The notes under the pieces: generated by a model
The model's input: the letters and a program-made list of their open reading frames with translations, nothing else
Told to the model about the DNA's origin: nothing
Databases searched by the model: none
In this document: positions 21,386 to 62,105 of the stretch, piece after piece
Numbering within the stretch: the first letter of the stretch is position 1
Layout of the letters: each line of letters opens with the position of its first letter
Position numbers and translations under genes: made by a program
NCBI GenBank assembly: GCA_041665925.1
Contig: JBAYHW010000005.1
Coordinates: 13,819-77,818 of the forward strand
Length of the DNA: 64,000 bases
Direction of reading: 5' to 3'
DNA from: Minisyncoccota bacterium
GTDB lineage: Bacteria; Patescibacteriota; Minisyncoccia; Phycocordibacterales; UBA9973

Positions 21386-23476
<2,091 letters not shown>

Positions 23477-23510: not shown

Positions 23511-25238
23511 TTATTTTTTATTCTTAATTTCTTCTAAAAGTTTTGAGATAAGTTCTTCTTTTGAAATTTGGCCTAGCTGGCCGGCGTCTCGGCATTCCAA
23601 AGTAATTTTGTTTGCTTCAATTTCTTTATCGCCGATAACTATCCAGTAAGGGAGCTTGTTATTTTTAGCATCGCGGACTTTGCCCCCCAAGTTTCCATCA
23701 TTATCATCTAGTTCAGCGCGAATATTATTTTCTTTCAATAACTCAAAAACCTTTCTAGCTTCAGCGTTATGATTTTCGCGAACAGGGATGACTTTCACCT
23801 GCACTGGTGCGAGCCAGAGAGGGAAGGCGCCGGCGGTGTGTTCTACGAGAATTCCGATGAATCTCTCCAGAGATCCATAAATTACCCTGTGTATTGCTAC
23901 AGGTCTTTTTCTTGTGCCATCTTTATCCATATATTCTAGTTCAAAACGCTGTGGTTGCTGAAAATCTAATTGAATAGTACCCATTTGCCAATCACGACCA
24001 ATTGCATCTTTCATTATGATGTCTATTTTAGGTCCATAAAATGCGCCATCTCCTTCAGCGACAGAATATTCCTTATCTGATTTTTCTAAAACATTTCGGA
24101 GGGCTTGTTCGGCCTTATTCCAAGTTTCTATTTCACCCAAAAAGCTTTCTGGGCGGGTTCCTAACCTGAAACGATATTCCAAATTAAATATTCCATAGAA
24201 TTCTTTACAAATTTCCATAATAGATCGGTATTCATCTTCTATCATGTCTTCGCTGACATAATTGTGAGAATCGTCTTGCTGGAAAGAGCGACAGCGGAGG
24301 AGGCCATTCAATGTTCCTGATCTTTCATATCTATGAAGTCTATCAGTATCTGACAAGCGGAGGGGCAGGTCTTTATAACTCACTTGCATGGATTTGAACA
24401 CTACCATGGCGTTCGGACAATTCATTGGCTTGATACCATAAACTTCATTTTCTCCCATGTCTGCAATGAACATGTCATCTTTATAGTGGTCCCAGTGTCC
24501 AGATGTTTTCCAGAGATCAGATTTATTTACTAATGGGCTTGCAATTTCTAAATAACCAAGTTCATTGTGCCTTTTGCGCCAATAGTTTTCTAACTCTTTA
24601 TATAAGATTAAACCTTTAGGTAACCAATACGGCATTCCTGGAGAAGTTTCATGGAACATAAAAAGCCCTAGCTCGCGGCCAAGTTTCTTATGGTCCCTTT
24701 TTTCTGCTTCCTCTCTTTGTGCTAGATAAGCATCTAGTTCTTCTTTATTTTTGAAAGCTAATCCGTAAATACGGGTGAGCATTTTATTTTTTTCATCTCC
24801 ACGCCAGTATGCTCCGGCTATGCGGTCGAGCTTGAAAGAGTCAGGTAGTACTTCATCCATATTCTCCACATGTCCGCCCTTACATAAATCCCAGTAACTC
24901 CCAGATTTATAAAAAGTTACCTTTTGTCCTTCTTTAGTAAATTCATCTATTAGTTCTGCCTTGTAGGGGTTGCCTGGGTATTCTTTTTTTGCTTCGTTAC
25001 CAGAGAGTTCATGTTTTTCGAATTTCTTCCAAGTAGGTAAAATTTTATGCATTACCTTCTCTATCTTTGGTAAGTCCGCATCCGAAAGGGGGCTAGAGAA
25101 TTCAAAGTCGAAATAAAAACCATTATCTATCGCTGGGCCAATGGTGCGCTTGGTATCTGGGTAGAGTTCCATAACTGCTGCGGCGAGTAGGTGAGCCAAT
25201 GAATGCCTTAAATTGTGCAATTTATCAGGGTTTTCCAT
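23511..25238 (-). CDS. thrS: Threonyl-tRNA synthetase (short form, 575 aa)
   Basis: Class II catalytic core and anticodon-binding domain. The HxxxH/CxxxH-type zinc site region matches ThrRS. Confidence 0.88.
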   Translation of the reverse strand: MENPDKLHNLRHSLAHLLAAAVMELYPDTKRTIGPAIDNGFYFDFEFSSPLSDADLPKIEKVMHKILPTWKKFEKHELSGNEAKKEYPGNPYKAELIDEFTKEGQKVTFYKSGSYWDLCKGGHVENMDEVLPDSFKLDRIAGAYWRGDEKNKMLTRIYGLAFKNKEELDAYLAQREEAEKRDHKKLGRELGLFMFHETSPGMPYWLPKGLILYKELENYWRKRHNELGYLEIASPLVNKSDLWKTSGHWDHYKDDMFIADMGENEVYGIKPMNCPNAMVVFKSMQVSYKDLPLRLSDTDRLHRYERSGTLNGLLRCRSFQQDDSHNYVSEDMIEDEYRSIMEICKEFYGIFNLEYRFRLGTRPESFLGEIETWNKAEQALRNVLEKSDKEYSVAEGDGAFYGPKIDIIMKDAIGRDWQMGTIQLDFQQPQRFELEYMDKDGTRKRPVAIHRVIYGSLERFIGILVEHTAGAFPLWLAPVQVKVIPVRENHNAEARKVFELLKENNIRAELDDNDGNLGGKVRDAKNNKLPYWIVIGDKEIEANKITLECRDAGQLGQISKEELISKLLEEIKNKK

Positions 25239-25846: not shown

Positions 25847-25868
25847 GTAATTTTTGTTTTTTAACACA

Positions 25869-26801
25869 ATGGCAAATAGGCACCTTTCCAGATCAATAGT
25901 GCTCCAGACGCTTTTTGAGTGGGACTTCTCATCTCAAGATAAGAAAACTAAAAACCTAAATAGCGAAGAAGTACAAGAAACTTTAAAAAGAAATTTAAAA
26001 GAATTCGCTCCTGGTTTTGAGGATGATGTTTTCGTATTTTCTCTCATAGATAAGGTGTTAAAAAAACAAACAGTCATAGATGAGATTATTGGAAAAGCAG
26101 CCCCGGACTGGCCAATAGATAAAATTTCTGTCATTGATAGAAATATTTTAAGAATTGGGCTTACCGAGCTTCTTTTTGGTGATAGAAAAGAAGTGCCTCC
26201 GAAAGTGGCTATAAATGAAGCGATAGAGTTGGCGAAAACTTTTGGCGGAGAGAACTCTGGCAAATTTGTAAACGGCGTCCTCGGTGCTGTGTATAAAGAG
26301 ATAGGGGAGCCGGGTAAAGAGCAAATCAGTAAAAAGAAAAAAACAGACGAACCTGTCGATATAACAAAGTTGCCTATAGATAAAAAGGGAGGGGCTCTGG
26401 TATACGCTGACCATGATGGGAAAATAATGTTTGCCCTAGTGCACGACGTGTTTGGATACTGGACAATTTCCAAAGGAACAATTGAAGACGGAGAAAACGA
26501 AAAAGAGGCTACTATTAGGGAAATAAAAGAAGAGATAGGGCTTGATATTGAGATACAAGAAAAGTTGGGAGAGAATGAGTACGTTGCTTCTCACCCCGAA
26601 AAAGGAAAAAGTTTAAAAAAGGTGGTATATTTTTTAGCTAAAAGTGAATGTAAGGAATTAGAATTAGAAAAGTCTGGAGGCCTAGACGGAGCTCGTTGGT
26701 TTGAGCTTTCAGCTATACCCGAACTTCGAATTTATAATGATATTATCCCATTGATTAGTAAAGCAATTGAAATATTAACCACCGCCAAAGCGGGACAATA
26801 A
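25869..26801 (+). CDS. nusB: NusB antitermination factor fused to a C-terminal Nudix hydrolase domain (about 310 aa)
   Basis: The NusB fold (RHLSRSIVLQTLFEWDF ... ILRIGLTELLF) is followed by the Nudix box GTIEDGENEKEATIREIKEEIGL (Gx5Ex7REUxEExGU). Confidence 0.8.
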   Translation: MANRHLSRSIVLQTLFEWDFSSQDKKTKNLNSEEVQETLKRNLKEFAPGFEDDVFVFSLIDKVLKKQTVIDEIIGKAAPDWPIDKISVIDRNILRIGLTELLFGDRKEVPPKVAINEAIELAKTFGGENSGKFVNGVLGAVYKEIGEPGKEQISKKKKTDEPVDITKLPIDKKGGALVYADHDGKIMFALVHDVFGYWTISKGTIEDGENEKEATIREIKEEIGLDIEIQEKLGENEYVASHPEKGKSLKKVVYFLAKSECKELELEKSGGLDGARWFELSAIPELRIYNDIIPLISKAIEILTTAKAGQ

Positions 26802-27496
26802 TGATAAAATTTTCAGATTTTGAGAAAAAAATAAAAGTGGTTTTTAAAGATAAAGCATTGCTTCAGCAGTCTTTTACCCATCGTTCATATATAAATGAAA
26901 ATCCAGGAGTGTCTCTGTCTCACAATGAACGCTTAGAATTTCTGGGGGACGCTGTGCTTGAGCTTATCGTTACAGATTTTCTATATAAAAAATATCCACA
27001 ATACACCGAAGGGGAATTGACGGCAGTGCGTTCCGCGCTGGTGAATGCAATTATTATTTCTGAAATTGCTAGCGACATTGGTATGAATGACTACCTGCTT
27101 TTATCTAAAGGTGAAGCTAAAGACAATGGTAAAGCAAGACAATATATCCTAGCCAATACTTATGAAGCTGTTGTTGGTGCCATGTATTTAGACCAAGGGT
27201 ATGATGTCGTGGATAAATTTGTGACACAGACTTTACTCCCAAAGACTTCGGACATAGTCAGTAAAAAACTCTGGCGTGATGCGAAGTCCTTAGTGCAAGA
27301 GAAAGCGCAAGAATTCGTATCTATGACGCCTGCTTATAAAGTTCTCACGCAGTCTGGCCCAGACCACGACAAACATTTTACTGTTGGTATTTATTTCGGT
27401 ACAGATTTAATCGCCGAAGGTAAAGGTAAAAGTAAGCAAGAAGCCGAACAGAAAGCAGCCGAAGCCGCTTTAAAAGTAAAAAATTGGCAAGATTAA
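26801..27496 (+). CDS. rnc: Ribonuclease III
   Basis: RNase III signature ERLEFLGDAVL and a C-terminal dsRBD. Confidence 0.92.
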   Translation: MIKFSDFEKKIKVVFKDKALLQQSFTHRSYINENPGVSLSHNERLEFLGDAVLELIVTDFLYKKYPQYTEGELTAVRSALVNAIIISEIASDIGMNDYLLLSKGEAKDNGKARQYILANTYEAVVGAMYLDQGYDVVDKFVTQTLLPKTSDIVSKKLWRDAKSLVQEKAQEFVSMTPAYKVLTQSGPDHDKHFTVGIYFGTDLIAEGKGKSKQEAEQKAAEAALKVKNWQD

Positions 27497-27514: not shown

Positions 27515-29671
27515 ATGCGCTTAAAAACACTTCAACTAAATGGTTTTAAATCTTTTGCACAAAAAACTGTTTTAGAGTTTGAGAGTCCTATCGTGTCTAT
27601 CGTGGGGCCGAATGGCTCCGGGAAGTCCAACGTTGTAGAAGCTATCCGTTTCGTCTTGGGGGAGCAATCAATGAAGTCTATGCGCGGTAAGGGGGGCTCT
27701 GACCTTGTTTTTAAGGGTTCGAAGAATCTATCTAGAGGTTCTAAGGCAGCTGTGACTATTTATTTTAATAATACTGATAAAATTTTTAAATTATCAAACG
27801 ATAACGGAGATGATATAAATTTAAATTATGATGTAATTTCGATTTCTCGTGAAGTTTATTCCGATGGGGTCAATAAATATATTTTAAACGGATCCGAAGT
27901 CAGGCTGAAAGACATACACAACTTACTCGCTTCAGTAAACATCGGCTCTTCGGGGCACCACATCATATCTCAAGGAGAAGCAGACAGAATTTTAAACGCT
28001 TCGGCTCGCGATAAAAAAGAAATGGTAGAAGACGCACTCGGGCTTAAGATTTATCAATACAAAATAAAAGAATCCGAAAGAAAACTAGAAAAGACCACAG
28101 AAAATATGAAAGAGGTGACTATGCTCCGAAGGGAGAATGCACCCCACTTGAAATTCCTAGAAAAACAAGTAGAGAAATTTGAAAAGGCTAAGGAAATGCA
28201 AACAAGTCTGGCTAATCTATACCGAGAATACTTAAGCAAAGAAAGCATTTATATAGAAAATGAAAAGGAAAACCTATCACGAGAGAGGAACAAATTGTCG
28301 GAAGAACTGCGAGGTATAAATATAAAAATTTCTGCCACCGAAGATACTAATAAGCAAGAAAATAAAAAGATTGAGGAATTGCGAATAGTGGAGCAGAGGG
28401 TCAACGGAATCCGTGGAGCGAAGGGAGAGCTCGAGCGCAAGCTAGGGAGAATTGAAGGAATATTAGAATCAAGAGAGAATAAAGTAAAAGTCGCCGGAAA
28501 ATGCCCACTCTGTGGTAGTGAGATAAAAGAAGGAGCAGAACAAATAGAGAAAAAGCATAACGAAGAGAAAGAGCTGGAAGAATTGAAAATTTCACAGGCT
28601 AATACTGTGGCCGAGATTAGAAAAATTGAAGGAGAAGAAAAAGAGGGGATTCAAATTATTGAAAATCTCAAACAAGCAATAAATACAGAGATGGAAGCCT
28701 TGCGTGACTTAGAGCGTGAGAAATTCGCCTTTAAAGTAAGACACCAAGAGCTTTCTTCGGCGCTTGAGCTCGTAGTTATCAAAGAGGCGAACCTAAAGAA
28801 CAGAAAAGAAGCCTTCGAAAACGAGATAAAAGAGGGTGGGGCATTAATTGGCTCGGACATTTTTTCATATAAGAATTATACAGTTGAAGAAAAAGTAGAA
28901 CACGAGACTCAAGAAGAATTAAAAAAGAAAATAGAACGTATAAAGATAAAGCTTGAAGATGCAGGCATGGGCAATGGGGCGGAATTGATGAAAGAATTTG
29001 AACAAGTTTCTGAGCGAGATCAATTCTTAGCCAAGGAGCTTGAAGACTTAGAGAAGAGCATAGAATCTTTAGAAAAACTTATTGTAGATCTGAAAGAAAA
29101 GATAGATTTAGAATTTAAAGAAGGGGTCAAGAAAATAAATGTGGAATTTCAAGAATTTTTCTCACTGATGTTCGGCGGGGGGCACGGAGCGCTTTCAATT
29201 GTCGTAGAAAATAAAAAGTCCCGACGCCCTGCGGGGTCGGGATCCCGACCTGATGCGTCGGGAAAATTTGAAGACGAGGAGTTTGAATTTGAAGACGACG
29301 AAGAAATAGTTTTCGAACAGGGGATAGAGATAAATGTGTCCTTGCCTCACAAAAAAGTCAAAGATTTACATGCGTTTTCGGGAGGAGAAAGATCCCTTAC
29401 ATCCATCGCGCTTCTCTTCGCTATGTCTCAAGTCAATCCGCCGCCATTTCTAGTTCTTGATGAGACAGATGCCGCACTCGATGAAGCCAATTCTCGAAAA
29501 TATGGAGATATGCTAGAAAAACTCTCTAAGCAATCTCAACTCATCGTGGTTACTCACAACAGAGAGACGATGTCTCGAGCTGGAGTGCTCTACGGCGTCA
29601 CCATAGGTGGCGACGGTGCTTCCAAACTTCTCTCTGTGAAGTTCGAAGAAGCCACCCAGATTGCTAAATAG
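27515..29671 (+). CDS. smc: Miniaturised SMC-family ATPase (718 aa) with a CxxC zinc-hook-like apex instead of a hinge
   Basis: N-terminal Walker A MRLKTLQLNGFKSFAQKTVLEFESPIVSIVGPNGSGKSNVVEAIRFVLGEQS. C-terminal signature and D-loop FSGGERSLTSIALLFA...FLVLDETDAALDE. Mid-coiled-coil AGKCPLCGSEI. It sits in the conserved rnc-smc position. Confidence 0.8.
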   Translation: MRLKTLQLNGFKSFAQKTVLEFESPIVSIVGPNGSGKSNVVEAIRFVLGEQSMKSMRGKGGSDLVFKGSKNLSRGSKAAVTIYFNNTDKIFKLSNDNGDDINLNYDVISISREVYSDGVNKYILNGSEVRLKDIHNLLASVNIGSSGHHIISQGEADRILNASARDKKEMVEDALGLKIYQYKIKESERKLEKTTENMKEVTMLRRENAPHLKFLEKQVEKFEKAKEMQTSLANLYREYLSKESIYIENEKENLSRERNKLSEELRGINIKISATEDTNKQENKKIEELRIVEQRVNGIRGAKGELERKLGRIEGILESRENKVKVAGKCPLCGSEIKEGAEQIEKKHNEEKELEELKISQANTVAEIRKIEGEEKEGIQIIENLKQAINTEMEALRDLEREKFAFKVRHQELSSALELVVIKEANLKNRKEAFENEIKEGGALIGSDIFSYKNYTVEEKVEHETQEELKKKIERIKIKLEDAGMGNGAELMKEFEQVSERDQFLAKELEDLEKSIESLEKLIVDLKEKIDLEFKEGVKKINVEFQEFFSLMFGGGHGALSIVVENKKSRRPAGSGSRPDASGKFEDEEFEFEDDEEIVFEQGIEINVSLPHKKVKDLHAFSGGERSLTSIALLFAMSQVNPPPFLVLDETDAALDEANSRKYGDMLEKLSKQSQLIVVTHNRETMSRAGVLYGVTIGGDGASKLLSVKFEEATQIAK

Positions 29672-29716
29672 AAATAGAGTGTTAATCTTTACCTTGGGTA
29701 GCAGGAAGGAGAAACG

Positions 29717-29974
29717 ATGCGAAGTCGCCCCTTTGAGGAGACGATCCTCGAGACGATAAGCGAGATGTGCATTCCCCAGGTCGAACTGGTGGCCAATCTG
29801 ATACTTAGGACCACCATCAACAACAACCACGATGAGATTGCCGTCGCCTGGCGGGAGCGATGCCTGGAACTGGGACTCCGCGACCACATGGATGTGGTCG
29901 CGGCGCTCGAGTTTAAAAGGCGAAGTATCCAGCCCGCCTACAACGCTGTTTTCTCTGGCATTTTCGATCAGTAG
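29717..29974 (+). CDS. GC-rich hypothetical protein (85 aa), MRSRPFEETILETISEMCIPQVELVANLILRTT...
   Basis: Strong SD GGAAGGAGA 4 nt upstream of the ATG. Followed by the hairpin AGCCCG...CGGGCT plus a T-rich tract. About 55% GC. No family recognised. Confidence 0.45.
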   Translation: MRSRPFEETILETISEMCIPQVELVANLILRTTINNNHDEIAVAWRERCLELGLRDHMDVVAALEFKRRSIQPAYNAVFSGIFDQ

Positions 29975-30034
29975 TAGCAGTGAGCCCGTGTGAGGAGTCC
30001 GCGTACTATACGCTACCCCGCGGGCTTTCTCATT

Positions 30035-30202
30035 TTATTTCTTCCAATCTTTAACCTGCACGCCACCTTGGATTTTAGTGACCACGAGCTTCTGCCGTTC
30101 TTTCCAGCCGAGTGCTCGCACGACTTCGATCGGCAGAGTCAAATAATATGACCCGCCCGACTGCTGTAGATTTCTAATTTTTGCATCTTTTATTTTTCTC
30201 AT
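30035..30202 (-). CDS. AbrB/MazE/SpoVT-fold (swapped-hairpin) small DNA-binding protein, 55 aa
   Basis: The minus-strand translation MRKIKDAKIRNLQQSGGSYYLTLPIEVVRALGWKERQKLVVTKIQGGVQVKDWKK shows the characteristic pattern: a G-rich turn followed by a LTIPKEIREKLGL-like strand-helix. Not in the ORF track because it is under 60 aa. Confidence 0.6.
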   Translation of the reverse strand: MRKIKDAKIRNLQQSGGSYYLTLPIEVVRALGWKERQKLVVTKIQGGVQVKDWKK

Positions 30203-30276
30203 CCCGTTAGAAATTAAGCTAATAAATAAATCCTGTTAGCTTGACGGAAATCTAAAGATTTCCTATTTCTAACGGG
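30203..30276 (-). repeat. Inverted-repeat cassette, copy 1: CCCGTTAGAAAT...ATTTCTAACGGG, flanked by ATGAG on both sides and containing a 22-aa mini-ORF (30214-30282)
   Basis: 12-bp terminal inverted repeats seen in the sequence. A second copy is at 33062-33126. Confidence 0.7.
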
Positions 30277-30290
30277 ACTCATACATGTAA

Positions 30291-30338
30291 GTATATACCA
30301 ATCCCTGGGGATATCCCTAGGGAAGTCCCTAGGGATTC
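30291..30338. promoter_or_regulatory. Operator-like repeat block: GTATATACCAATCCCTGGGGATATCCCTAGGGAAGTCCCTAGGGATTC, carrying tandem TCCCTAGGGA palindromes. Direct repeat of 31060-31096.
   Basis: It lies in the divergent region between the AbrB-like gene on the minus strand and the two small GC-rich ORFs on the plus strand. Confidence 0.6.
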
Positions 30339-30404
30339 GCAAGAATCCTATATCTGGACAATAGTAATATTTAATGTTAGAAAATACTTGAAGGAGGACT
30401 CGAT

Positions 30405-30611
30405 ATGAATTATCGAGCAAAGATCAAGCGGGCCAGAGCCCGCCGGTACCACGAACGTTGGAAGGCAGCGCGACGCGCTGGCCTTCCCAAGGGCCCCAGC
30501 GGGACCACCAAGTCGAATCTGCTTCGGCCGAGCAAGCCGGTACGTCGGGCACACCAGAAGGAGGGGGACGGGTGGTGCCCCGAATGCTGGTCTTTCATGT
30601 GCCGGGCGTGA
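30405..30611 (+). CDS. GC-rich small basic protein (68 aa), Arg/Lys-rich, with C-terminal CPECWSFMC
   Basis: Strong SD GAAGGAGGAC 5 nt upstream of the ATG. A candidate -35/-10 pair (TGGACA ... TAGAAA) upstream. Confidence 0.45.
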   Translation: MNYRAKIKRARARRYHERWKAARRAGLPKGPSGTTKSNLLRPSKPVRRAHQKEGDGWCPECWSFMCRA

Positions 30612-30635
30612 GCGGCCTGGGGCTGTCAATCAAAA

Positions 30636-30908
30636 ATGCACAAGGAGGAGGTTACCGTGTTCGTAATTGAGCATCTCGAGCAGTTTTGCCAAGACCACCC
30701 CGAGTTCTTCGGCGATAACACGCGTGAGTGTGTTATCGCCGAAGCCAAGAACCGGGCGAACGAGGAAGGAGTTCTCATGTCCGCTGAAGCCGAGAGCCTT
30801 CTCGGCCCGACTCTCGCGTTCCAGTTCTTCTCGGAGATGACTAGCACGAGCAAGCATCTCCAGATCAGCATGGAAGTTGCGGAGCGTCTGCGGAAGAGCG
30901 TTCGGTAA
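30636..30908 (+). CDS. GC-rich small acidic protein (84-90 aa). The probable start is the GTG at 30657, which is preceded by AAGGAGGAGG.
   Basis: An SD sits 5 nt before the in-frame GTG. The ORF is followed by the CCCCG...CGGGG hairpin and, further downstream, the terminator at 31019-31056. Confidence 0.4.
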   Translation: MHKEEVTVFVIEHLEQFCQDHPEFFGDNTRECVIAEAKNRANEEGVLMSAEAESLLGPTLAFQFFSEMTSTSKHLQISMEVAERLRKSVR

Positions 30909-31018
30909 TCCTGGTTAGCACAACCCCGTCGACGACAGCGAAGTCGGCGGGGTGGGGCTGGTGGGTTCTTTAAAATCGTGTTAGTAAAACACGAACCTTA
31001 AAAGGGTTCGTTGTATCG

Positions 31019-31056
31019 AGCCCTGCAAGGAAAAGAACTCTTGCGGGGCTTTTCTA
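31019..31056 (+). terminator. Intrinsic terminator AGCCCTGCAAG-loop-CTTGCGGGGCT followed by TTTTCT
   Basis: Stem plus T-run at the right edge of the GC-rich island. Confidence 0.7.
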
Positions 31057-31059
31057 ATT

Positions 31060-31116
31060 GGTATATACCAATCACTAGGGAAGTCCCTAGGGACTGATCT
31101 ACGCCATGGCGTAGAT
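31060..31116. repeat. Second copy of the operator-like repeat (TGGTATATACCAATCACTAGGGAAGTCCCTAGGGACT) followed by a perfect 20-bp palindrome ATCTACGCCATGGCGTAGAT
   Basis: TGGTATATACCA (12 bp) and AGTCCCTAGGGACT (14 bp) are perfect palindromes. The 20-bp palindrome is at 31097-31116. Confidence 0.7.
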
Positions 31117-31141
31117 TTCTTAGTATATTATATATGATAGA

Positions 31142-33061
31142 TTAAGGAAGTTTTAATTTTTCCTCTTTGGCAGGGATTATTTTATTTAGTTGGAAAACAG
31201 AGTTAAGTTGGGTTTGATTTTTCTTTACTGATATAGAGCCGTCGCGGTTTAACTTTATTTCTAGAAGCATACCTTGCATCGTAGCTTTACTCCATGATTG
31301 GTCAAACACAAAGTTCCCGAGAGAGTAGGCAATGAAACTCGCGCACGAACTTTGAGTGCAATCTTTCCTGCTGTATACTTCTGTATCTTCAACTACGTGC
31401 GGATGATGTCCGATAACTATTTTTGCCCCCGCATCCACGGCTTTATGGGCGAGATATTCCTGACGAGCATTGTGCCTTGGTTTATATTCATCGCCGAAAT
31501 GGAAAGAAACGACGAGATAATCTACTTGCTTTGCAGCATTTTGAACTATCTCATTAAAACGAGGGTTGCTAGCGAGGAGTACACCTGCTTTTTCTTCTCC
31601 GGCTTCCATCCACGAAGGGCCGACGTCAGAAAACCCAAGGTAACCTATTTTCATCCCATATTTTTCTATGATGACTGGAGTCTCAGCCTCAGCGCGGTTA
31701 TAGCCTCCGCCAGTATAATGTATTTCATTTTCTTTCAAGCGCCCTAGAGTGTCAACGTATGCAGTGCGCCCCCAGTCTCCCACGTGATTATTCGCAAGAG
31801 ATAAAACACCCACTCCGGCCCCTTTGAGCGCGGGGATTACGCCGGGGTCCATTCTAAATGAATATAAATTTTTCTGGTCAACTCCTTGATCTGACGCGGT
31901 GCCCTCTAAATTGGCGAAAGCGATGTCTGACTTTTTAAATATATCTACTTTTTCAAAGATAGCTGAGTAATCATTGTTGAAATTTTTTACCACCGAAGAC
32001 CTCACGCCACGGTCGAGCATTATGTCTCCACCGAAAGCTAGCATTACGAAAGATGGATCTTTTATTTCTGGTAGACCAACTTTTTCTTTAACCCAGTCGG
32101 TGTTAGCGTCAGCTTTCCCTCCATAATAAATATATTTTTTTAAATATTTTACAATTGATTCCACATCTTTCTTCCTATCAGTACTCTGAAGTAGGGTGAT
32201 GGCTATAGGGCGAGTGCCAGTTTCACTAAGAGGAAGATTGAAAAGAGATACTACTGTTTGCTTGGCAGGGTCGGTGTAGCCACTTTTACCTCCTGTGTAT
32301 CCGTCTTGGCCTAAAAATTGGCTGATGTTGGACCAGCTGTGCTTTTTGTTTGTGTAGCTTCTTTTTGTGGTAATGCCCACTAGGTCTGGTTTTTCTTTCG
32401 TTAAGTATCCGGTTAATTTAAAAATATCAGAGACAGTAGATTTATTGTTTATAGAAAGTCCGCTCGGATCGGCAAATGAAGTGTTTGGCATTTTTAGAAT
32501 CTCTGCCACCTCATTCATTTTTGAAATAAAGGAATCTCTACCGAAATGTTCGGCGATGGCTTCAGCCGCGTCGTTGCTAGATTCTAAAAGGAGCGGGTAG
32601 AGCAGGTCGGTAGTTTTTATTTTTTCCCCAAGTTTTAATTCTCCATTGGAGCCAGAGGTAGCTAGAGCTTTTTTGCTGACTTGTACTGTGTCATCTGCGT
32701 TGGTTATTTCTGTGGCTACTAGAGCTGTCATCAGCTTGGAGACCGAAGCGATAGGGAAGGCCACTTCTTGATTTTTTGAGAGAATGACTTCACCAGTATT
32801 CAAATCTCCGACAAGATATGCTTTCGCGGAGACCTTCGGTCCGCCGTTCGTGTCTTTATTGACATAAAAATATTGAGATTTTATCTCTTCGCGGTCTTTA
32901 GGAATAAGCTGAACTACTGAAGCGAGATTGTTTGATGATTGCCGGAAGTCGTTAATATTAAGGGCAGAAAATACTGACGATGTAAAAAATACTCCAATTA
33001 ATATTGAAAATGTGGTCCACAGTATTACATTTATTTTTTTTCTTTTTTGAATAGGACTCAT
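31142..33061 (-). CDS. Fusion protein: N-terminal D-alanyl-D-alanine carboxypeptidase (S11/PBP5-like) plus C-terminal CapA/PGA-type metallophosphoesterase (639 aa)
   Basis: Signal-anchor. The SxxK motif ASVSKLMTALV, the SxN motif ESSNDAAEA and the KTG motif GGKSGYT. Then the CapA motifs FANLEG, GYNRAE, VSFHFGDEY, GHHPHV and GNFVFDQ. Confidence 0.8.
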   Translation of the reverse strand: MSPIQKRKKINVILWTTFSILIGVFFTSSVFSALNINDFRQSSNNLASVVQLIPKDREEIKSQYFYVNKDTNGGPKVSAKAYLVGDLNTGEVILSKNQEVAFPIASVSKLMTALVATEITNADDTVQVSKKALATSGSNGELKLGEKIKTTDLLYPLLLESSNDAAEAIAEHFGRDSFISKMNEVAEILKMPNTSFADPSGLSINNKSTVSDIFKLTGYLTKEKPDLVGITTKRSYTNKKHSWSNISQFLGQDGYTGGKSGYTDPAKQTVVSLFNLPLSETGTRPIAITLLQSTDRKKDVESIVKYLKKYIYYGGKADANTDWVKEKVGLPEIKDPSFVMLAFGGDIMLDRGVRSSVVKNFNNDYSAIFEKVDIFKKSDIAFANLEGTASDQGVDQKNLYSFRMDPGVIPALKGAGVGVLSLANNHVGDWGRTAYVDTLGRLKENEIHYTGGGYNRAEAETPVIIEKYGMKIGYLGFSDVGPSWMEAGEEKAGVLLASNPRFNEIVQNAAKQVDYLVVSFHFGDEYKPRHNARQEYLAHKAVDAGAKIVIGHHPHVVEDTEVYSRKDCTQSSCASFIAYSLGNFVFDQSWSKATMQGMLLEIKLNRDGSISVKKNQTQLNSVFQLNKIIPAKEEKLKLP

Positions 33062-35087: not shown

Positions 35088-35123
35088 TGTATTTAATATA
35101 GCAAATATGGGGCAAAATAGTGG

Positions 35124-35152
35124 TTGACAAGCACCCCAAAATGTGCTATACT
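35124..35152 (+). promoter_or_regulatory. Near-consensus sigma70 promoter TTGACA-17 nt-TATACT
   Basis: -35 at 35124-35129 and -10 at 35147-35152, upstream of the GC-rich lipoprotein gene. Confidence 0.65.
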
Positions 35153-35209
35153 ATACCACAGAAGAGCGAGGTGGCCATTTAAGCACCTGCTCAAAAGGAG
35201 AATTGACAA

Positions 35210-35590
35210 ATGAAGAAGCTCATCGTCATCCTGGTGGCCGTGTTGGCCACCGCCTGCGCCACCACCGGCGTGAAGCTCGCGGAGCAGGCCGCTCCGCAGA
35301 CGGTTCTCTTCGCTGACGTGACCACCTGCCTCAAGGCGGCCATTGACGCAACACTGACTCCGACGGCGGCAGCGGAATTCTGTCTCGAGGCAAGACGTCT
35401 CGAAGCCGACCGCGCAAAAGCCACCGCCGAAGCAGCGGCCAAGGCGGAGGCGAACAAGCCGGCATGTGGGCTCTGCCTCATGCCGGGGACAGGATACGGA
35501 TACTACAACACGTATCCACCGCCTCCGCCGCGACCGATCGGCGGCTACACCAACACCGTCGTAGCATACACGGAACACAAGGTGAAGTAG
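35210..35590 (+). CDS. GC-rich small lipoprotein (126 aa) with lipobox LATAC, an Ala-rich helix and a C-terminal PPPPPRP/Tyr-rich tail
   Basis: SD AAAAGGAGA 8 nt upstream. Signal peptide MKKLIVILVAVLATAC. About 62% GC with high GC3. Its own promoter and terminator. Confidence 0.6.
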   Translation: MKKLIVILVAVLATACATTGVKLAEQAAPQTVLFADVTTCLKAAIDATLTPTAAAEFCLEARRLEADRAKATAEAAAKAEANKPACGLCLMPGTGYGYYNTYPPPPPRPIGGYTNTVVAYTEHKVK

Positions 35591-35622
35591 GCATCACATC
35601 GAAGGGGATGTTTTCGTCCCAA

Positions 35623-35709: not shown

Positions 35710-36222
35710 ATGTCAAAGAAAGCCTTAGGGTTTATTTTAATAAGTATATTTTTCCTTTTATTTGGATACGCCAAGTCTGCAGCAGCTTGCTACACTTGCT
35801 ACCCGTATTATTACGGATACTCTTTCGGATACGGCACCAACGATCCTTACTATGTAGGGGACTCTATGGGTACTAATAATTATTTCCCAGCGAATCAACC
35901 TATCTTGGTAAATACCGGCAGGCTAAATGTCACTGGAGTGGAATTTAATACCAATGGTGGTTATTACGGAGGGAATACATATTATAGTGGATATAATACC
36001 ATCGGAGTGAATGAATATTTTCTAACAAACCAGAATGTGTCCGTGGGCACCACACAATACAATATCGGAGGAGATATGTATGGAGTAAACAATTACTATA
36101 ACGCCGACGATAGATACTATGCAGACGACAGATATTTCGCTCGCGAAAGACATGATACAAGTGAAAGATATTCTGTAAGGAGAGGAGGGACCGGCGAGAG
36201 TGAGAGGTATAGAGTAAATTAA
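35710..36222 (+). CDS. Secreted Tyr/Gly/Asn-rich low-complexity protein (170 aa) with the N-terminal CYTCYPYYYGY motif
   Basis: Signal peptide MSKKALGFILISIFFLLFGYAKS, then YY/GY/NY-rich repeats and a DDRYYADDRYFARERHD tail. Confidence 0.5.
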   Translation: MSKKALGFILISIFFLLFGYAKSAAACYTCYPYYYGYSFGYGTNDPYYVGDSMGTNNYFPANQPILVNTGRLNVTGVEFNTNGGYYGGNTYYSGYNTIGVNEYFLTNQNVSVGTTQYNIGGDMYGVNNYYNADDRYYADDRYFARERHDTSERYSVRRGGTGESERYRVN

Positions 36223-61304: not shown

Positions 61305-62105
61305 ATGGATAGCATAACAAAAATAGTATTATTTAAAAATAAACAGATACGCAAGACACTTTATAATCATGAGTGGTGGTTTTCTGTAGCAGATGTATGT
61401 GAAGCTCTCACTGATAGTATTGATTCTGGAGCTTATTGGAGAAAACTAAAACAAAGGCTAACAGAAGAAGGTAGTGAAGTCGTGACATTTTGTCACGGGT
61501 TGAAATTATTGGCTCCAGACGGAAAAATGAGAGAAACGGATTGTGCTGATACAGAAGGAATATTTAGGATAGTTCAGTCTATTCCATCACCCAAAGCCGA
61601 ACCTTTCAAGCGTTGGTTAGCTAAAGTAGGCTATGAAAGAATACAAGAAATTGAAAATCCGGAGCTTGCCACAAAAAGGACCAGAATGCTTTACAAGTTA
61701 AAAGGGTATAGTGATGATTGGATAGAAAAAAGAATGCGAGGCATCGTTATTCGCGAGGAATTAACTGATGAATGGAAAAATAGAGGAGCAAAAGAAGATA
61801 GAGATTATGAAATTTTAACAGCAGAGATTTCAGAAGCTACATTTGGAGTTACTCCGAGTGAATATAAAAAATTAAAGGGTTTAAAGCGCCAAAATTTGCG
61901 TGATCATATGGATGATTTTGAATTGATTTTTAATATGCTCGGAGAAAGAGCTACTACAGAAATACATCGTACTGAAAATTCTAAAGGAGTTTTTAAATTA
62001 AAAGCTGATGCTAAAGCAGGGGGCAACATTGCTGGTGGCGCTCGCAAAAAACTTGAAAAAAGATTAAGGCGTTCAATTGTAACCAAGAAGAATTTTTTAA
62101 AATGA
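61305..62105 (+). CDS. BRO-N domain protein (phage antirepressor / DinD-like)
   Basis: N-terminal KTLYNHEWWFSVADVCEALT matches the Bro-N signature (WFVAKDVAKALG). Confidence 0.65.
   Translation: MDSITKIVLFKNKQIRKTLYNHEWWFSVADVCEALTDSIDSGAYWRKLKQRLTEEGSEVVTFCHGLKLLAPDGKMRETDCADTEGIFRIVQSIPSPKAEPFKRWLAKVGYERIQEIENPELATKRTRMLYKLKGYSDDWIEKRMRGIVIREELTDEWKNRGAKEDRDYEILTAEISEATFGVTPSEYKKLKGLKRQNLRDHMDDFELIFNMLGERATTEIHRTENSKGVFKLKADAKAGGNIAGGARKKLEKRLRRSIVTKKNFLK

What the first reader, a model, noticed from the sequence alone, without database searches (positions are those of the whole stretch)
27515..29671. Hinge-less mini-SMC with a Rad50-like CxxC zinc hook, in the conserved rnc-smc slot
The N- and C-terminal head motifs are unmistakably SMC (FKSF...GPNGSGKSN; FSGGERSLTSIALLFA; DETDAALDE). 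The protein is only 718 aa. In place of a hinge, the coiled-coil midpoint carries AGKCPLCGSEI, a CPxCG zinc-hook motif like that of Rad50/SbcC. It occupies the smc position after rnc, with no sbcD neighbour. This suggests a condensin whose dimerisation interface has been replaced by a zinc hook, which is mechanistically interesting for SMC evolution.
Basis: partly seen in the sequence, partly recalled or inferred. Interest (0 to 1): 0.75.

Follow-up and report, generated by a model that had tools for sequence, protein, structure and literature searches.

The report
Natural zinc-hook SMC without a hinge
This ultra-small groundwater bacterium's chromosome-organising SMC protein has arms about half the usual length and no hinge, and instead carries a Rad50-type zinc hook at the arm tip; close relatives carry an unrelated cysteine-free helical tip in the same gene, so nature appears to have repeated a published domain-swap experiment.

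Summary
ORF 27515-29671 (+) encodes a 718-aa protein directly after rnc. Its head is bacterial Smc: TIGR02168 scores 495 bits, against 72 bits or less for Rad50 and 39 or less for RecN. The best solved-structure match is B. subtilis Smc (1e-76), and the top 24 fold hits are all SMC-type heads. No hinge domain is detectable.

In an AlphaFold2 model (pLDDT 87.5), CPLC (aa 330-333) lies in the only loop between two long arm helices. These are the protein's only cysteines. A profile of this region hits the Pyrococcus Rad50 zinc-hook structures first (1L8D, E 1.6e-5).

The protein belongs to a large family of hinge-less mini-SMCs (about 690-800 aa) in Paceibacteria (Patescibacteria/CPR). Most members have a cysteine-free helical apex about 65 aa long. 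The hook occurs in Nomurabacteria (CPxCG) and in other lineages such as Vogelbacteria (CxYCGQ). Both apex types occupy the same rnc-smc slot, and nearest relatives can differ in type, which points to recurrent cassette exchange.

Not tested: zinc binding, dimerisation, and whether ScpA/ScpB or a second SMC exists elsewhere in the genome. I found no report of a natural hook-bearing Smc. The closest precedents are an engineered B. subtilis Smc-zinc-hook chimera and hook-less, hinge-less marine SMCs.

The parts
27515..29671 (+). smc gene encoding a 718-aa hinge-less mini-SMC with an apical zinc hook
   Evidence: ORF; SMC_N 1e-56 over aa 3-701; TIGR02168 495 bits; B. subtilis Smc head 1e-76; AF2 pLDDT 87.5; Foldseek top 24 hits are all SMC-type heads
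27605..27628 (+). Walker A / P-loop GPNGSGKS (aa 31-38)
   Evidence: Invariant in the 148-sequence family alignment; coordinates verified
27962..27979 (+). Q-loop IISQGE (aa 150-155)
   Evidence: Q153 invariant; aligns with B. subtilis Smc SIISQG
28046..28492 (+). N-terminal arm helix (aa 178-326, short break at 281-282)
   Evidence: AF2 DSSP, H178-280 and H283-326, mostly pLDDT above 80
28442..28459 (+). LGRIEG motif (aa 310-315), nearly invariant family-wide, immediately upstream of the variable apex cassette
   Evidence: Invariant or nearly invariant in alignments A1, A2 and A5; marks the 5' boundary of the swapped region
28493..28534 (+). Apex loop AGKCPLCGSEIKEG (aa 327-340), the putative zinc hook
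   Evidence: Only non-helical stretch between the arms; pLDDT below 50, as expected for a monomer modelled without metal or partner; profile hits Rad50 hooks 1L8D/6ZFF at E 1.6e-5/8.6e-5
28502..28513 (+). CPLC (C330, C333), the only cysteines in the protein
   Evidence: the only invariant columns in the hook alignment
28535..29173 (+). C-terminal arm helices (aa 341-553), running back to the head
   Evidence: AF2 DSSP, H341-454, H466-483, H488-553; aa 473-563 align with the head-proximal coiled coil of B. subtilis Smc
28877..28975 (+). Interruption of the C-terminal arm helix (aa 455-487), interpreted as the SMC 'joint'
   Evidence: Loop 455-465, H466-483, loop 484-487; best structural match is 5XEI, an Smc head with coiled coil and joint. 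The joint assignment is an inference.
29213..29311 (+). Acidic, low-confidence insertion in the C-terminal head half (aa 567-599), absent from B. subtilis Smc
   Evidence: Low pLDDT: block means 34-56 over aa 571-600 and below 50 over 585-593; about 34 unaligned query residues between aligned stretches 473-563 and 598-715; variable across the family
29375..29392 (+). ABC signature motif FSGGER (aa 621-626)
   Evidence: S622, G623, G624 and E625 invariant
29447..29485 (+). Walker B and D-loop FLVLDETDAALDE (aa 645-657), catalytic Glu650 intact
   Evidence: D649, E650, D652 and D656 invariant; differs from the E-to-Q change described as typical of LmuB (PMC10586767)
29579..29650 (+). C-terminal head strands AGVLYGVTIGGDGASKLLSVKFEE (aa 689-712)
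   Evidence: Closely aligned with B. subtilis ADVLYGVTMQESGVSKVISVKLEE. From my own knowledge of Smc-ScpA and Smc1-Scc1 structures, this is the kleisin winged-helix docking region. Conservation is suggestive only.
26801..27496 (+). rnc (RNase III), immediately upstream, defining the conserved rnc-smc slot
   Evidence: Pfam Ribonucleas_3_3 1e-37 plus dsrm; rnc lies within 200 nt of smc in 71 of 81 loci
25854..26801 (+). nusB-NUDIX fusion gene, part of the conserved gene string
   Evidence: Pfam NusB 1e-34 plus NUDIX 9e-14; conserved order pheT-gyrB-thrS-nusB-rnc-smc-dac-rnr-trmD

Best explanation
The gene is this organism's orthologue of bacterial smc, the ATPase core of Smc-type condensin, in a miniaturised form. 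The N- and C-terminal halves fold into a canonical, catalytically intact SMC head. About 150 residues per strand form an antiparallel arm of roughly 22 nm that keeps the head-proximal neck and joint. The distal half of a normal arm and the whole hinge are absent.

At the tip, G-K-C-P-L-C-G forms a Rad50-type zinc hook. Each chain supplies only two cysteines, so a tetrahedral Zn(Cys)4 site needs two chains, and this would give a constitutive tip-to-tip homodimer. ATP-driven head engagement, and presumably a kleisin, would then act as in Smc-ScpAB.

The hook is one of two interchangeable apex modules in a hinge-less mini-SMC family of Paceibacteria. The other is a cysteine-free helical element of about 65 aa. 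The modules have been exchanged between close relatives, most likely by homologous recombination across the conserved arm flanks.

Shown here: gene, motifs, head identity, absence of a hinge, apex position, similarity to the Rad50 hook, family distribution, shared synteny, and discordance between apex type and relatedness. Inferred: zinc binding, dimerisation through the hook, kleisin partnership, chromosome-organising function, and the recombination mechanism.
For: Head identity: TIGR02168 SMC_prok_B scores 495 bits, against 72 or less for every Rad50 model, 39 or less for RecN and 54 for ASRP. B. subtilis Smc head structures score 1e-76. The Foldseek top 24 PDB hits are all Smc, cohesin or condensin heads, the best being 5XEI (2.5e-30); Rad50 first appears at rank 25.

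Catalytic motifs are intact and invariant across 148 family members, including Walker B Glu650.

No hinge: SMC_hinge is absent from the query at E<=0.01 and from 10 relatives at E<=0.1.

Apex: AF2 (pLDDT 87.5, pTM 0.72) places CPLC in the only loop between the two arm helices.

Hook: it holds the only two cysteines and is invariant in 120/120 homologues. The hook-region profile hits 1L8D and 6ZFF (P. furiosus Rad50 hook) at E 1.6e-5 and 8.6e-5, with the next hit at 0.067. The same test on the alternative apex gives only designed helical bundles.

Orthology: both apex types sit in the slot pheT-gyrB-thrS-nusB-rnc-smc-dac-rnr-trmD.

Functional plausibility: B. subtilis Smc with its hinge replaced by the P. 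furiosus Rad50 hook supports normal growth, and some shortened arms are functional (PMC5344682).

Cassette exchange: hooks were never monophyletic in 100 bootstrap replicates. Hook/insert sister pairs have 77-100% support. Flanking housekeeping genes independently make L056 (insert) and L008 (hook), and L074 (insert) and L050 (hook), nearest relatives. The L056 apex region, aa about 281-440, resembles other insert-type genes (45-88% identity per 40-aa window) far more than its sister (2.5-62.5%).
Against: No metal, oligomer or dimer model was tested, and the hook loop itself has pLDDT below 50. Pfam Rad50_zn_hook is only sub-threshold: 11.6 bits for the query against a cut-off of 24.3. TIGR02168 is below its equivalog cut-off (495 against 567.35), as expected when about 40% of the model is missing.

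ScpA and ScpB were not found in the window, in about 1.6 Mb of flanks from 81 loci (probes validated), or in extended flanks. Their presence elsewhere in the genome, and the absence of a second smc, are unknown.

Close relatives do without any cysteine at the apex, so the hook is not essential to the family. The trees are neighbour-joining only, a concatenated flank tree was unresolved, and one SMC-tree sister pair (L041/L062) was not supported by its flanking genes.
Confidence: 0.75

Rival explanations
1. The protein is a true mini-SMC, but the CxxC is not an inter-subunit zinc hook. It could be an intramolecular metal or structural clip, a redox-sensitive pair, or a site that binds a partner, with dimerisation achieved some other way, for example by arm-arm packing as in the cysteine-free relatives.
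For: Sister lineages with 0-1 cysteine and a helical apex presumably still dimerise. The hook loop is low-confidence in the monomer model. The Pfam hook model is sub-threshold.
Against: With only two cysteines per chain, four-cysteine zinc coordination requires two chains, and no conserved His or Cys lies nearby. The flanking consensus G-[KR]-C-P-x-C-G-x-E-[IL] matches the P. furiosus Rad50 hook at E 1.6e-5. The hook cassette replaces the helical apex rather than adding to it, and hook-type proteins are about 38 aa shorter there, which is what alternative dimerisation modules would look like.
Confidence: 0.12
2. It is an accessory SMC-like paralogue, for repair or another role, and the genome has a separate canonical hinge-bearing Smc-ScpAB elsewhere.
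For: Whole genomes could not be searched. No ScpA or ScpB is linked to the gene. TIGR02168 is below its cut-off.
Against: The gene occupies the rnc-smc position in 71 of 81 loci. From my own knowledge this matches the B. subtilis rnc-smc-ftsY arrangement; the smc-ftsY linkage can be seen in the strain genotypes. Its heads are closer to Smc than to any other family. All 150 best cluster representatives are short, as expected for a lineage-wide orthologue. A 2025 paper notes that prokaryotic SMC duplication had not been described (PMC12153180).
Confidence: 0.08
3. It is a Rad50/SbcC-type double-strand-break repair ATPase, or RecN, misread as SMC.
For: Zinc hook at the apex; short arms; weak hits to Rad50 models.
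Against: Rad50 equivalog models score 72 bits or less against cut-offs of 700-1087, and RecN scores 39 or less against 408-418, while SMC scores 495. Rad50 is first seen at rank 25 in the fold search. No Mre11/SbcD-type gene appears in the annotated neighbourhoods.
Confidence: 0.02
4. It is a defence-system SMC-like ATPase, such as Lamassu LmuB (about 650 aa, about 20-nm arms, often CPxCG) or MADS mad3.
For: PADLOC mad3 198 bits and LmuB 105 bits. LmuB has the same size class and hook motif (PMC10586767).
Against: These scores are far below the Smc score (495 bits). The gene lies in a fixed housekeeping string in 81 species with no LmuA/LmuC-type neighbours. Walker B Glu is intact and invariant, whereas LmuB generally carries E-to-Q.
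Confidence: 0.02

Closest known systems
Bacterial Smc of the Smc-ScpAB condensin (TIGR02168; B. subtilis Smc structures 5XG3, 3ZGX)
   Same: Head sequence and fold; Walker A, Q-loop, signature, Walker B and H-loop; head-proximal coiled coil and joint-like interruption; conserved C-terminal strands; gene position after rnc.
   Different: 718 aa instead of about 1186. Arms of about 150 residues per strand instead of 344. No hinge domain. CPxCG at the apex. An acidic insertion of about 33 aa in the C-terminal head half. ScpA/ScpB partnership unverified.
Engineered B. subtilis Smc(Zh) chimera and Mini-Smc constructs (Burmann et al. 2017, PMC5344682)
   Same: An Smc head and arm joined to a Rad50-type zinc hook instead of the hinge, and shortened arms. 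The chimera supported normal growth, and some short arm lengths were functional.
   Different: Those are laboratory constructs using the P. furiosus hook on B. subtilis arms. This is a natural gene conserved across many species, with shorter arms than the shortest functional range quoted in the sections I read (253-267 aa) and closest to the minor natural mode at 163 aa. That survey located arms between head and hinge, so hinge-less proteins would not have been counted.
Rad50/SbcC zinc hook (P. furiosus Rad50, PDB 1L8D and 6ZFF)
   Same: CPxCG at the apex of an antiparallel coiled coil, with similar flanks: [14 protein letters not shown] against GKCPLCGSEIKEGA. Profile E-value 1.6e-5.
   Different: The head is SMC, not Rad50. 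No Mre11/SbcD neighbour. The Pfam hook model is below threshold. Whether the hook is homologous to Rad50's (acquired) or convergent is unresolved.
Hinge-less SMC variants from marine metagenomes (Sussfeld et al. 2025, PMC12153180)
   Same: [quoted passage not shown]
   Different: Those branch with Actinomycetes and explicitly lack CxxC. This family is in Paceibacteria, and a sizeable minority carries a zinc hook.
Lamassu LmuB
   Same: About 650 aa, arms of about 20 nm, and often a CPxCG hook.
   Different: LmuB is described as a Rad50 relative in a defence operon, usually with Walker B E-to-Q. The query has Smc heads, an intact Glu650 and a housekeeping context.
Archaea-specific SMC-related proteins (ASRP: ClsN, Sph1/2)
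   Same: SMC-superfamily head, coiled coil and a zinc-hook motif in place of a hinge (PMC9389158).
   Different: Archaeal and a separate family: NF045487 scores 54 bits against a cut-off of 300.

Membership tests
Bacterial Smc (SMC_prok_B, TIGR02168) | Bipartite ABC head with N-terminal Walker A and C-terminal signature and Walker B motifs, of SMC type | tested here: met
   SMC_N 1e-56; B. subtilis Smc head 1e-76; Foldseek top 24 all SMC-type heads; motifs invariant
Bacterial Smc (SMC_prok_B, TIGR02168) | Whole-protein equivalog score above the curated cut-off | tested here: not met
   495.1 bits against a cut-off of 567.35. The shortfall is expected because the hinge and distal arm are missing.
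Bacterial Smc (SMC_prok_B, TIGR02168) | Hinge dimerisation domain (PF06470) | tested here: not met
   No hit in the query at E<=0.01 or in 10 family members at E<=0.1. AF2 shows only a 14-residue loop at the apex.
Bacterial Smc (SMC_prok_B, TIGR02168) | Long intramolecular antiparallel coiled coil with joint | tested here: inconclusive
   Two long helices with a joint-like interruption; best fold match is 5XEI, head plus coiled coil plus joint. The arms are about half the normal length.
Bacterial Smc (SMC_prok_B, TIGR02168) | Kleisin ScpA and KITE ScpB partners | not testable with these tools
   None in the window, in 81 loci of up to +/-10 kb, or in extended flanks (probes validated). Whole genomes could not be scanned.
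Bacterial Smc (SMC_prok_B, TIGR02168) | Single-copy gene in the conserved rnc-smc position | tested here: inconclusive
   The rnc-smc position is met: rnc within 200 nt in 71 of 81 loci and a conserved gene string. Single copy per genome could not be tested.
Rad50/SbcC | CxxC zinc hook at the coiled-coil apex | tested here: met
   CPLC in the apex loop; profile hits 1L8D and 6ZFF at E 1.6e-5 and 8.6e-5. Zinc binding itself was not tested.
Rad50/SbcC | Rad50-type ATPase head | tested here: not met
   Rad50 equivalog models score 72 bits or less against cut-offs of 700-1087; Rad50 first appears at fold-search rank 25
Rad50/SbcC | Mre11/SbcD nuclease partner, usually adjacent | tested here: not met
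   No Mre11/SbcD-type family among the Pfam-annotated genes. A location elsewhere in the genome was not tested.
Lamassu LmuB | Defence-operon context with LmuA/LmuC, and the usual Walker B E-to-Q change | tested here: not met
   Housekeeping synteny in 81 species; Glu650 invariant; LmuB HMM 105 bits against Smc 495
Archaea-specific SMC-related proteins (ASRP) | NF045487 equivalog score | tested here: not met
   54.2 bits against a cut-off of 300
RecN | RecN equivalog score | tested here: not met
   39.4 and 37.9 bits against cut-offs of 418 and 408

The most novel reading that the evidence does not exclude
The apex of the Paceibacterial mini-SMC is a swappable dimerisation cassette. A Rad50-like zinc hook of about 30 aa and an unrelated, cysteine-free helical module of about 65 aa have repeatedly replaced one another, by recombination, in the same chromosomal gene of co-resident close relatives. 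This would mean the identity of the SMC dimerisation domain is functionally neutral in nature. It would also provide near-isogenic natural pairs for asking what an SMC hinge is for. Possible drivers, none tested, are zinc economy (by analogy with zinc-containing and zinc-free ribosomal protein forms) or control over which SMC chains can pair.
Probability: 0.45. Interest if true: 0.8.

Novelty: new variant of a known kind. Interest (0 to 1): 0.72.

Why it matters
Current reviews separate the two kinds of coiled-coil ABC ATPase by their tips: SMC proteins dimerise through a hinge, Rad50-like proteins through a zinc hook (PMC10586767). What the hinge does beyond dimerisation, such as DNA binding or acting as an entry gate, is still debated. 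A 2017 engineering study found that B. subtilis tolerates a Rad50 hook in its place (PMC5344682).

A natural Smc orthologue, conserved across many species, that has a hook, no hinge and arms about half the usual length would show that this solution is viable over evolutionary time. It would also set a natural lower bound on arm length for a chromosomal SMC, in cells with genomes of roughly 0.7-1 Mb. That genome size is inferred from the longest contigs, which may be near-complete genomes.

The coexistence of hook-type and helical-type apices in nearest relatives offers a ready comparative system. These proteins are currently annotated only as 'AAA family ATPase' or 'chromosome segregation protein'.

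Tried and rejected
1. SbcC/Rad50, RecN, ASRP and LmuB/mad3 identities: rejected on HMM scores, fold ranking, synteny and an intact Walker B.

2. First AF2 run on a shallow 30-sequence alignment gave poor heads (pLDDT 64). It was replaced by a run on 148 sequences.

3. Concatenated flanking-gene neighbour-joining tree: unresolved and inconsistent, because of missing genes and an intein-bearing gyrB in some loci. I used per-gene nearest-neighbour ranks instead. By that test the L041/L062 pairing from the SMC tree was not confirmed, and I do not count it.

4. For L050, the sliding-window signal of a transferred hook tract was weak. Only L056 shows a clear tract.

5. Linked ScpA/ScpB: phmmer with validated B. 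subtilis probes found nothing in the window or in 81 loci, and neither did Pfam-annotated extended flanks. This says nothing about the rest of the genome.

6. Is the helical insert a degenerate hinge? There were no hinge hits in Pfam or the PDB, only designed helical bundles.

7. The AFDB fold library was unavailable.

8. Literature searches for a natural hook-bearing or Patescibacterial hinge-less SMC found none. The library omits most subscription-journal papers.
Full report
**Observation.** The window contains an ATG-initiated ORF at 27515-29671 (+) encoding 718 aa. All quoted motifs are present and were verified by translation: Walker A GPNGSGKS (aa 31-38), Q-loop IISQGE (150-155), signature FSGGER (621-626), Walker B/D-loop FLVLDETDAALDE (645-657) and AGKCPLCGSEIKEG (327-340). 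The gene directly follows RNase III (26801-27496) and a NusB-NUDIX fusion gene (25854-26801). C330 and C333 are the only cysteines in the protein.

**What the head is.** Pfam SMC_N spans aa 3-701 (1e-56), and no SMC_hinge match is found. Among NCBIfam equivalogs, bacterial Smc (TIGR02168) scores 495 bits and the second Smc model (TIGR02169) 283. Every Rad50 model scores 72 or less, ASRP 54 and RecN 39 or less. The Smc score is below its cut-off of 567, as expected for a protein missing the central 40% of the model. By sequence, the best solved structures are B. subtilis Smc head constructs (1e-76), including the head-proximal coiled coil. In an AlphaFold2 model built on 148 family sequences (mean pLDDT 87.5, pTM 0.72), the top 24 Foldseek PDB hits are all Smc, cohesin or condensin heads. 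The best is 5XEI, an Smc head with coiled coil and joint (2.5e-30), and Rad50 first appears at rank 25. Defence-system models score far lower: mad3 198 bits and LmuB 105 bits. All catalytic residues are invariant across the family, including the Walker B glutamate that LmuB usually lacks.

**Where the CxxC sits.** The model has helices 178-280 and 283-326, a single non-helical stretch at 327-340 that contains CPLC, and then helices 341-454, 466-483 and 488-553 leading back into the head. The interruption at 455-487 corresponds in position to the SMC joint; this is an inference from the 5XEI match. The arm is about 150 residues per strand, or about 22 nm at 0.148 nm per residue (textbook coiled-coil rise). 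B. subtilis Smc has 344 residues, about 47 nm. The loop has pLDDT below 50, as expected for a hook modelled as a monomer without metal. I could not access the model coordinates, so helix-helix packing was not measured directly.

**Is it a zinc hook?** A profile of the 84-aa apex region from 27 diverse hook-bearing members was searched against all PDB sequences. The two best hits were the P. furiosus Rad50 zinc-hook structures 1L8D (E 1.6e-5) and 6ZFF (8.6e-5), aligning kisGrCPlCGqeikeedeeql with [21 protein letters not shown]. The next hit was at E 0.067. As a control, the same procedure on the alternative apex (see below) returned only designed helical bundles. The Pfam Rad50_zn_hook model is matched only below threshold (11.6 bits for the query, 17 bits for a Vogelbacterial member, cut-off 24.3). 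With two cysteines per chain and no conserved histidine nearby, a four-cysteine zinc site requires two chains. That is the Rad50 mechanism, but it is inferred here, not shown.

**The family.** The 120 closest database proteins are 74-82% identical and 706-740 aa long. They come from Nomurabacteria, Paceibacterota and Parcubacteria, and all carry C-P-[LTMV]-C-G. An exhaustive search of 1.84 billion cluster representatives found that the best 150 are all short, mostly 690-800 aa. None of ten tested has a hinge. However, only 8 of those 150 have CxxC. The rest have 0-2 cysteines and a helix-prone apex segment 58-97 aa long, against 36 aa in hook-bearing members. A second group of hook-bearing members, with the motif C-x-[YA]-C-G-Q, occurs in Vogelbacteria and other Paceibacterota: 43 of the 116 newly retrieved proteins in the profile search, median length 710 aa against 748 aa. 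CxxC occurs only around mid-sequence in this family, where the apex lies.

**Apex swapping.** In 81 loci (80 GTDB species representatives and one NCBI contig), 51 full-length genes are hook-type and 27 are insert-type; three further genes are split or partial. Both types lie in the same string, pheT-gyrB-thrS-nusB-rnc-smc-dac-rnr-trmD, so they are alleles of one orthologous gene and not paralogues. In a neighbour-joining analysis of heads plus arms with the apex removed, hook-bearing genes were never monophyletic in 100 bootstrap replicates. Hook/insert sister pairs had support of 100% (L041/L062), 87% (L027/L063), 87% (L056 with L008/L019) and 77% (L005 with L057/L033/L060).

A concatenated flank tree was uninformative, but per-gene nearest-neighbour ranks were clear. 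For L056 (insert), L008 (hook) is the closest of all loci in gyrB, nusB, rnc, dac and rnr. For L074 (insert), L050 (hook) is closest in six of eight genes. L041/L062 was not confirmed by its flanks.

The difference starts immediately after the nearly invariant LGRIEG motif. About 30 aa of hook cassette replace about 65 aa of helical cassette, between flanks that are about 85% identical. Over aa about 281-440, L056 is 45-88% identical per 40-aa window to insert-type genes of other lineages but only 2.5-62.5% to its sister. This looks like a recombination tract. Both types occur in MAGs from the same groundwater sample series (record titles). I regard recurrent exchange as likely but not proven, because only neighbour-joining trees and protein-level windows were used. 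The direction of change is unresolved. The helical type is much more widespread and so is probably ancestral within this family.

**Mechanism proposed.** I propose a rod-shaped Smc homodimer with arms of about 22 nm. It would be joined permanently at the tip by one zinc ion held by C330 and C333 of each chain, and joined transiently at the heads by ATP. It would act on the chromosome as Smc-ScpAB does. The head-proximal coiled coil (kleisin N-terminal site) and the C-terminal strands (kleisin winged-helix site) remain closely alignable with B. subtilis Smc; the assignment of those kleisin sites rests on my own knowledge. This conservation is compatible with a kleisin partner but does not prove one. 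No scpA or scpB lies in the window, in the 81 loci or in the extended flanks, and whole genomes could not be scanned.

**Comparison with what is known.** A 2023 review defines SMC proteins by a hinge and Rad50-like proteins by a zinc hook (PMC10586767). Burmann et al. 2017 replaced the B. subtilis Smc hinge with the P. furiosus Rad50 hook and obtained normal growth. They also found that only certain arm lengths work, with natural modes at 163 (minor), 238, 341, 423 and 515 aa (PMC5344682). Their survey located arms between head and hinge, so it could not have seen hinge-less proteins. The present arm, about 150-190 aa by their estimator, is nearest the 163-aa mode, but this comparison is only approximate. 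Tatebe et al. 2020 showed the converse swap, a MukB hinge in yeast Rad50 (PMC6969161). Sussfeld et al. 2025 reported hinge-less SMCs in a marine Actinomycetes-like clade and stated that those lack CxxC (PMC12153180). Archaeal ASRP/ClsN and Lamassu LmuB are hook-bearing SMC-superfamily proteins, but they belong to other families. I found no description of a natural hook-bearing Smc orthologue or of the Paceibacterial mini-SMC family. The searchable library excludes most subscription-journal papers.

**Verdict.** The protein is one member of a large hinge-less family. The hook alternates with a helical apex rather than directly replacing a hinge. Zinc binding, kleisin partnership and single-copy status remain to be tested. 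I classify it as a new variant of a known kind, with interest 0.72.

Noticed in passing
Relatives of the finding: P0121-P0270; loci L032, L033, L036, L052, L055-L060, L062, L063, L065, L066, L068-L075, L077-L081: Most hinge-less mini-SMCs carry neither hinge nor hook. They have a cysteine-free, helix-prone apex of about 58-97 aa (consensus around V-x-x-x-x-V ... L-x-x-I-x-x-x-x-x-x-F). It has no detectable similarity to SMC or MukB hinges and matches only designed helical bundles. How these proteins dimerise is unknown.
   Followed up: partly
window 29672-31141: A GC-richer 1.47-kb patch between smc and the dac gene. It holds three small ORFs without Pfam hits (85, 68 and 83 aa as called in L082) and a 33-nt direct repeat (30291 and 31061) built around the palindrome TCCCTAGGGA. 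It is absent from 80 related loci, apart from a 174-nt partial match in L048. L001 has maf at this position. It is probably a strain-specific insertion.
   Followed up: partly
window 29213-29311 (aa 567-599 of the SMC): An acidic, low-confidence insertion (KKSRRPAGSGSRPDASGKFEDEEFEFEDDEEIV) inside the C-terminal head half. It is absent from B. subtilis Smc and variable in sequence across the family.
   Followed up: no
window 25854-26801: NusB is fused to a C-terminal NUDIX hydrolase domain (315 aa). The fusion is conserved upstream of rnc in the related loci.
   Followed up: no
window 31142-33061 (-): A single 639-aa protein combines a D-Ala-D-Ala carboxypeptidase domain (Peptidase_S11) with a PGA_cap (CapA-like) domain. 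It is conserved next to smc in most loci.
   Followed up: no
window 23511-25238 (-) and the orthologous thrS genes in L008, L011, L050, L056, L074: thrS relationships disagree with those of all neighbouring genes. For example, L056 and L008 are 93% identical in gyrB, nusB and rnc but only 66% in thrS, whose closest relative is L011 at 91%. This suggests separate horizontal replacement of thrS.
   Followed up: no
L001 852-4229, compared with window 21395-23476: gyrB of GCA_028718635.1 carries an intein (1125 aa, Intein_splicing), whereas the window's gyrB (693 aa) does not.
   Followed up: no
window 35090-35600 and 35710-36222: A second GC-rich patch with overlapping ORFs on both strands, including a 126-aa ORF with a lipoprotein-like signal sequence. 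It is followed by a 170-aa secreted protein rich in Tyr, Gly and Asn with no Pfam hit.
   Followed up: no
window 61305-62105 and beyond (L083 10001-15537): A Bro-N domain protein is followed by a 1579-aa ORF with no Pfam hit that runs past the end of the window. This may be mobile or phage-derived DNA.
   Followed up: no
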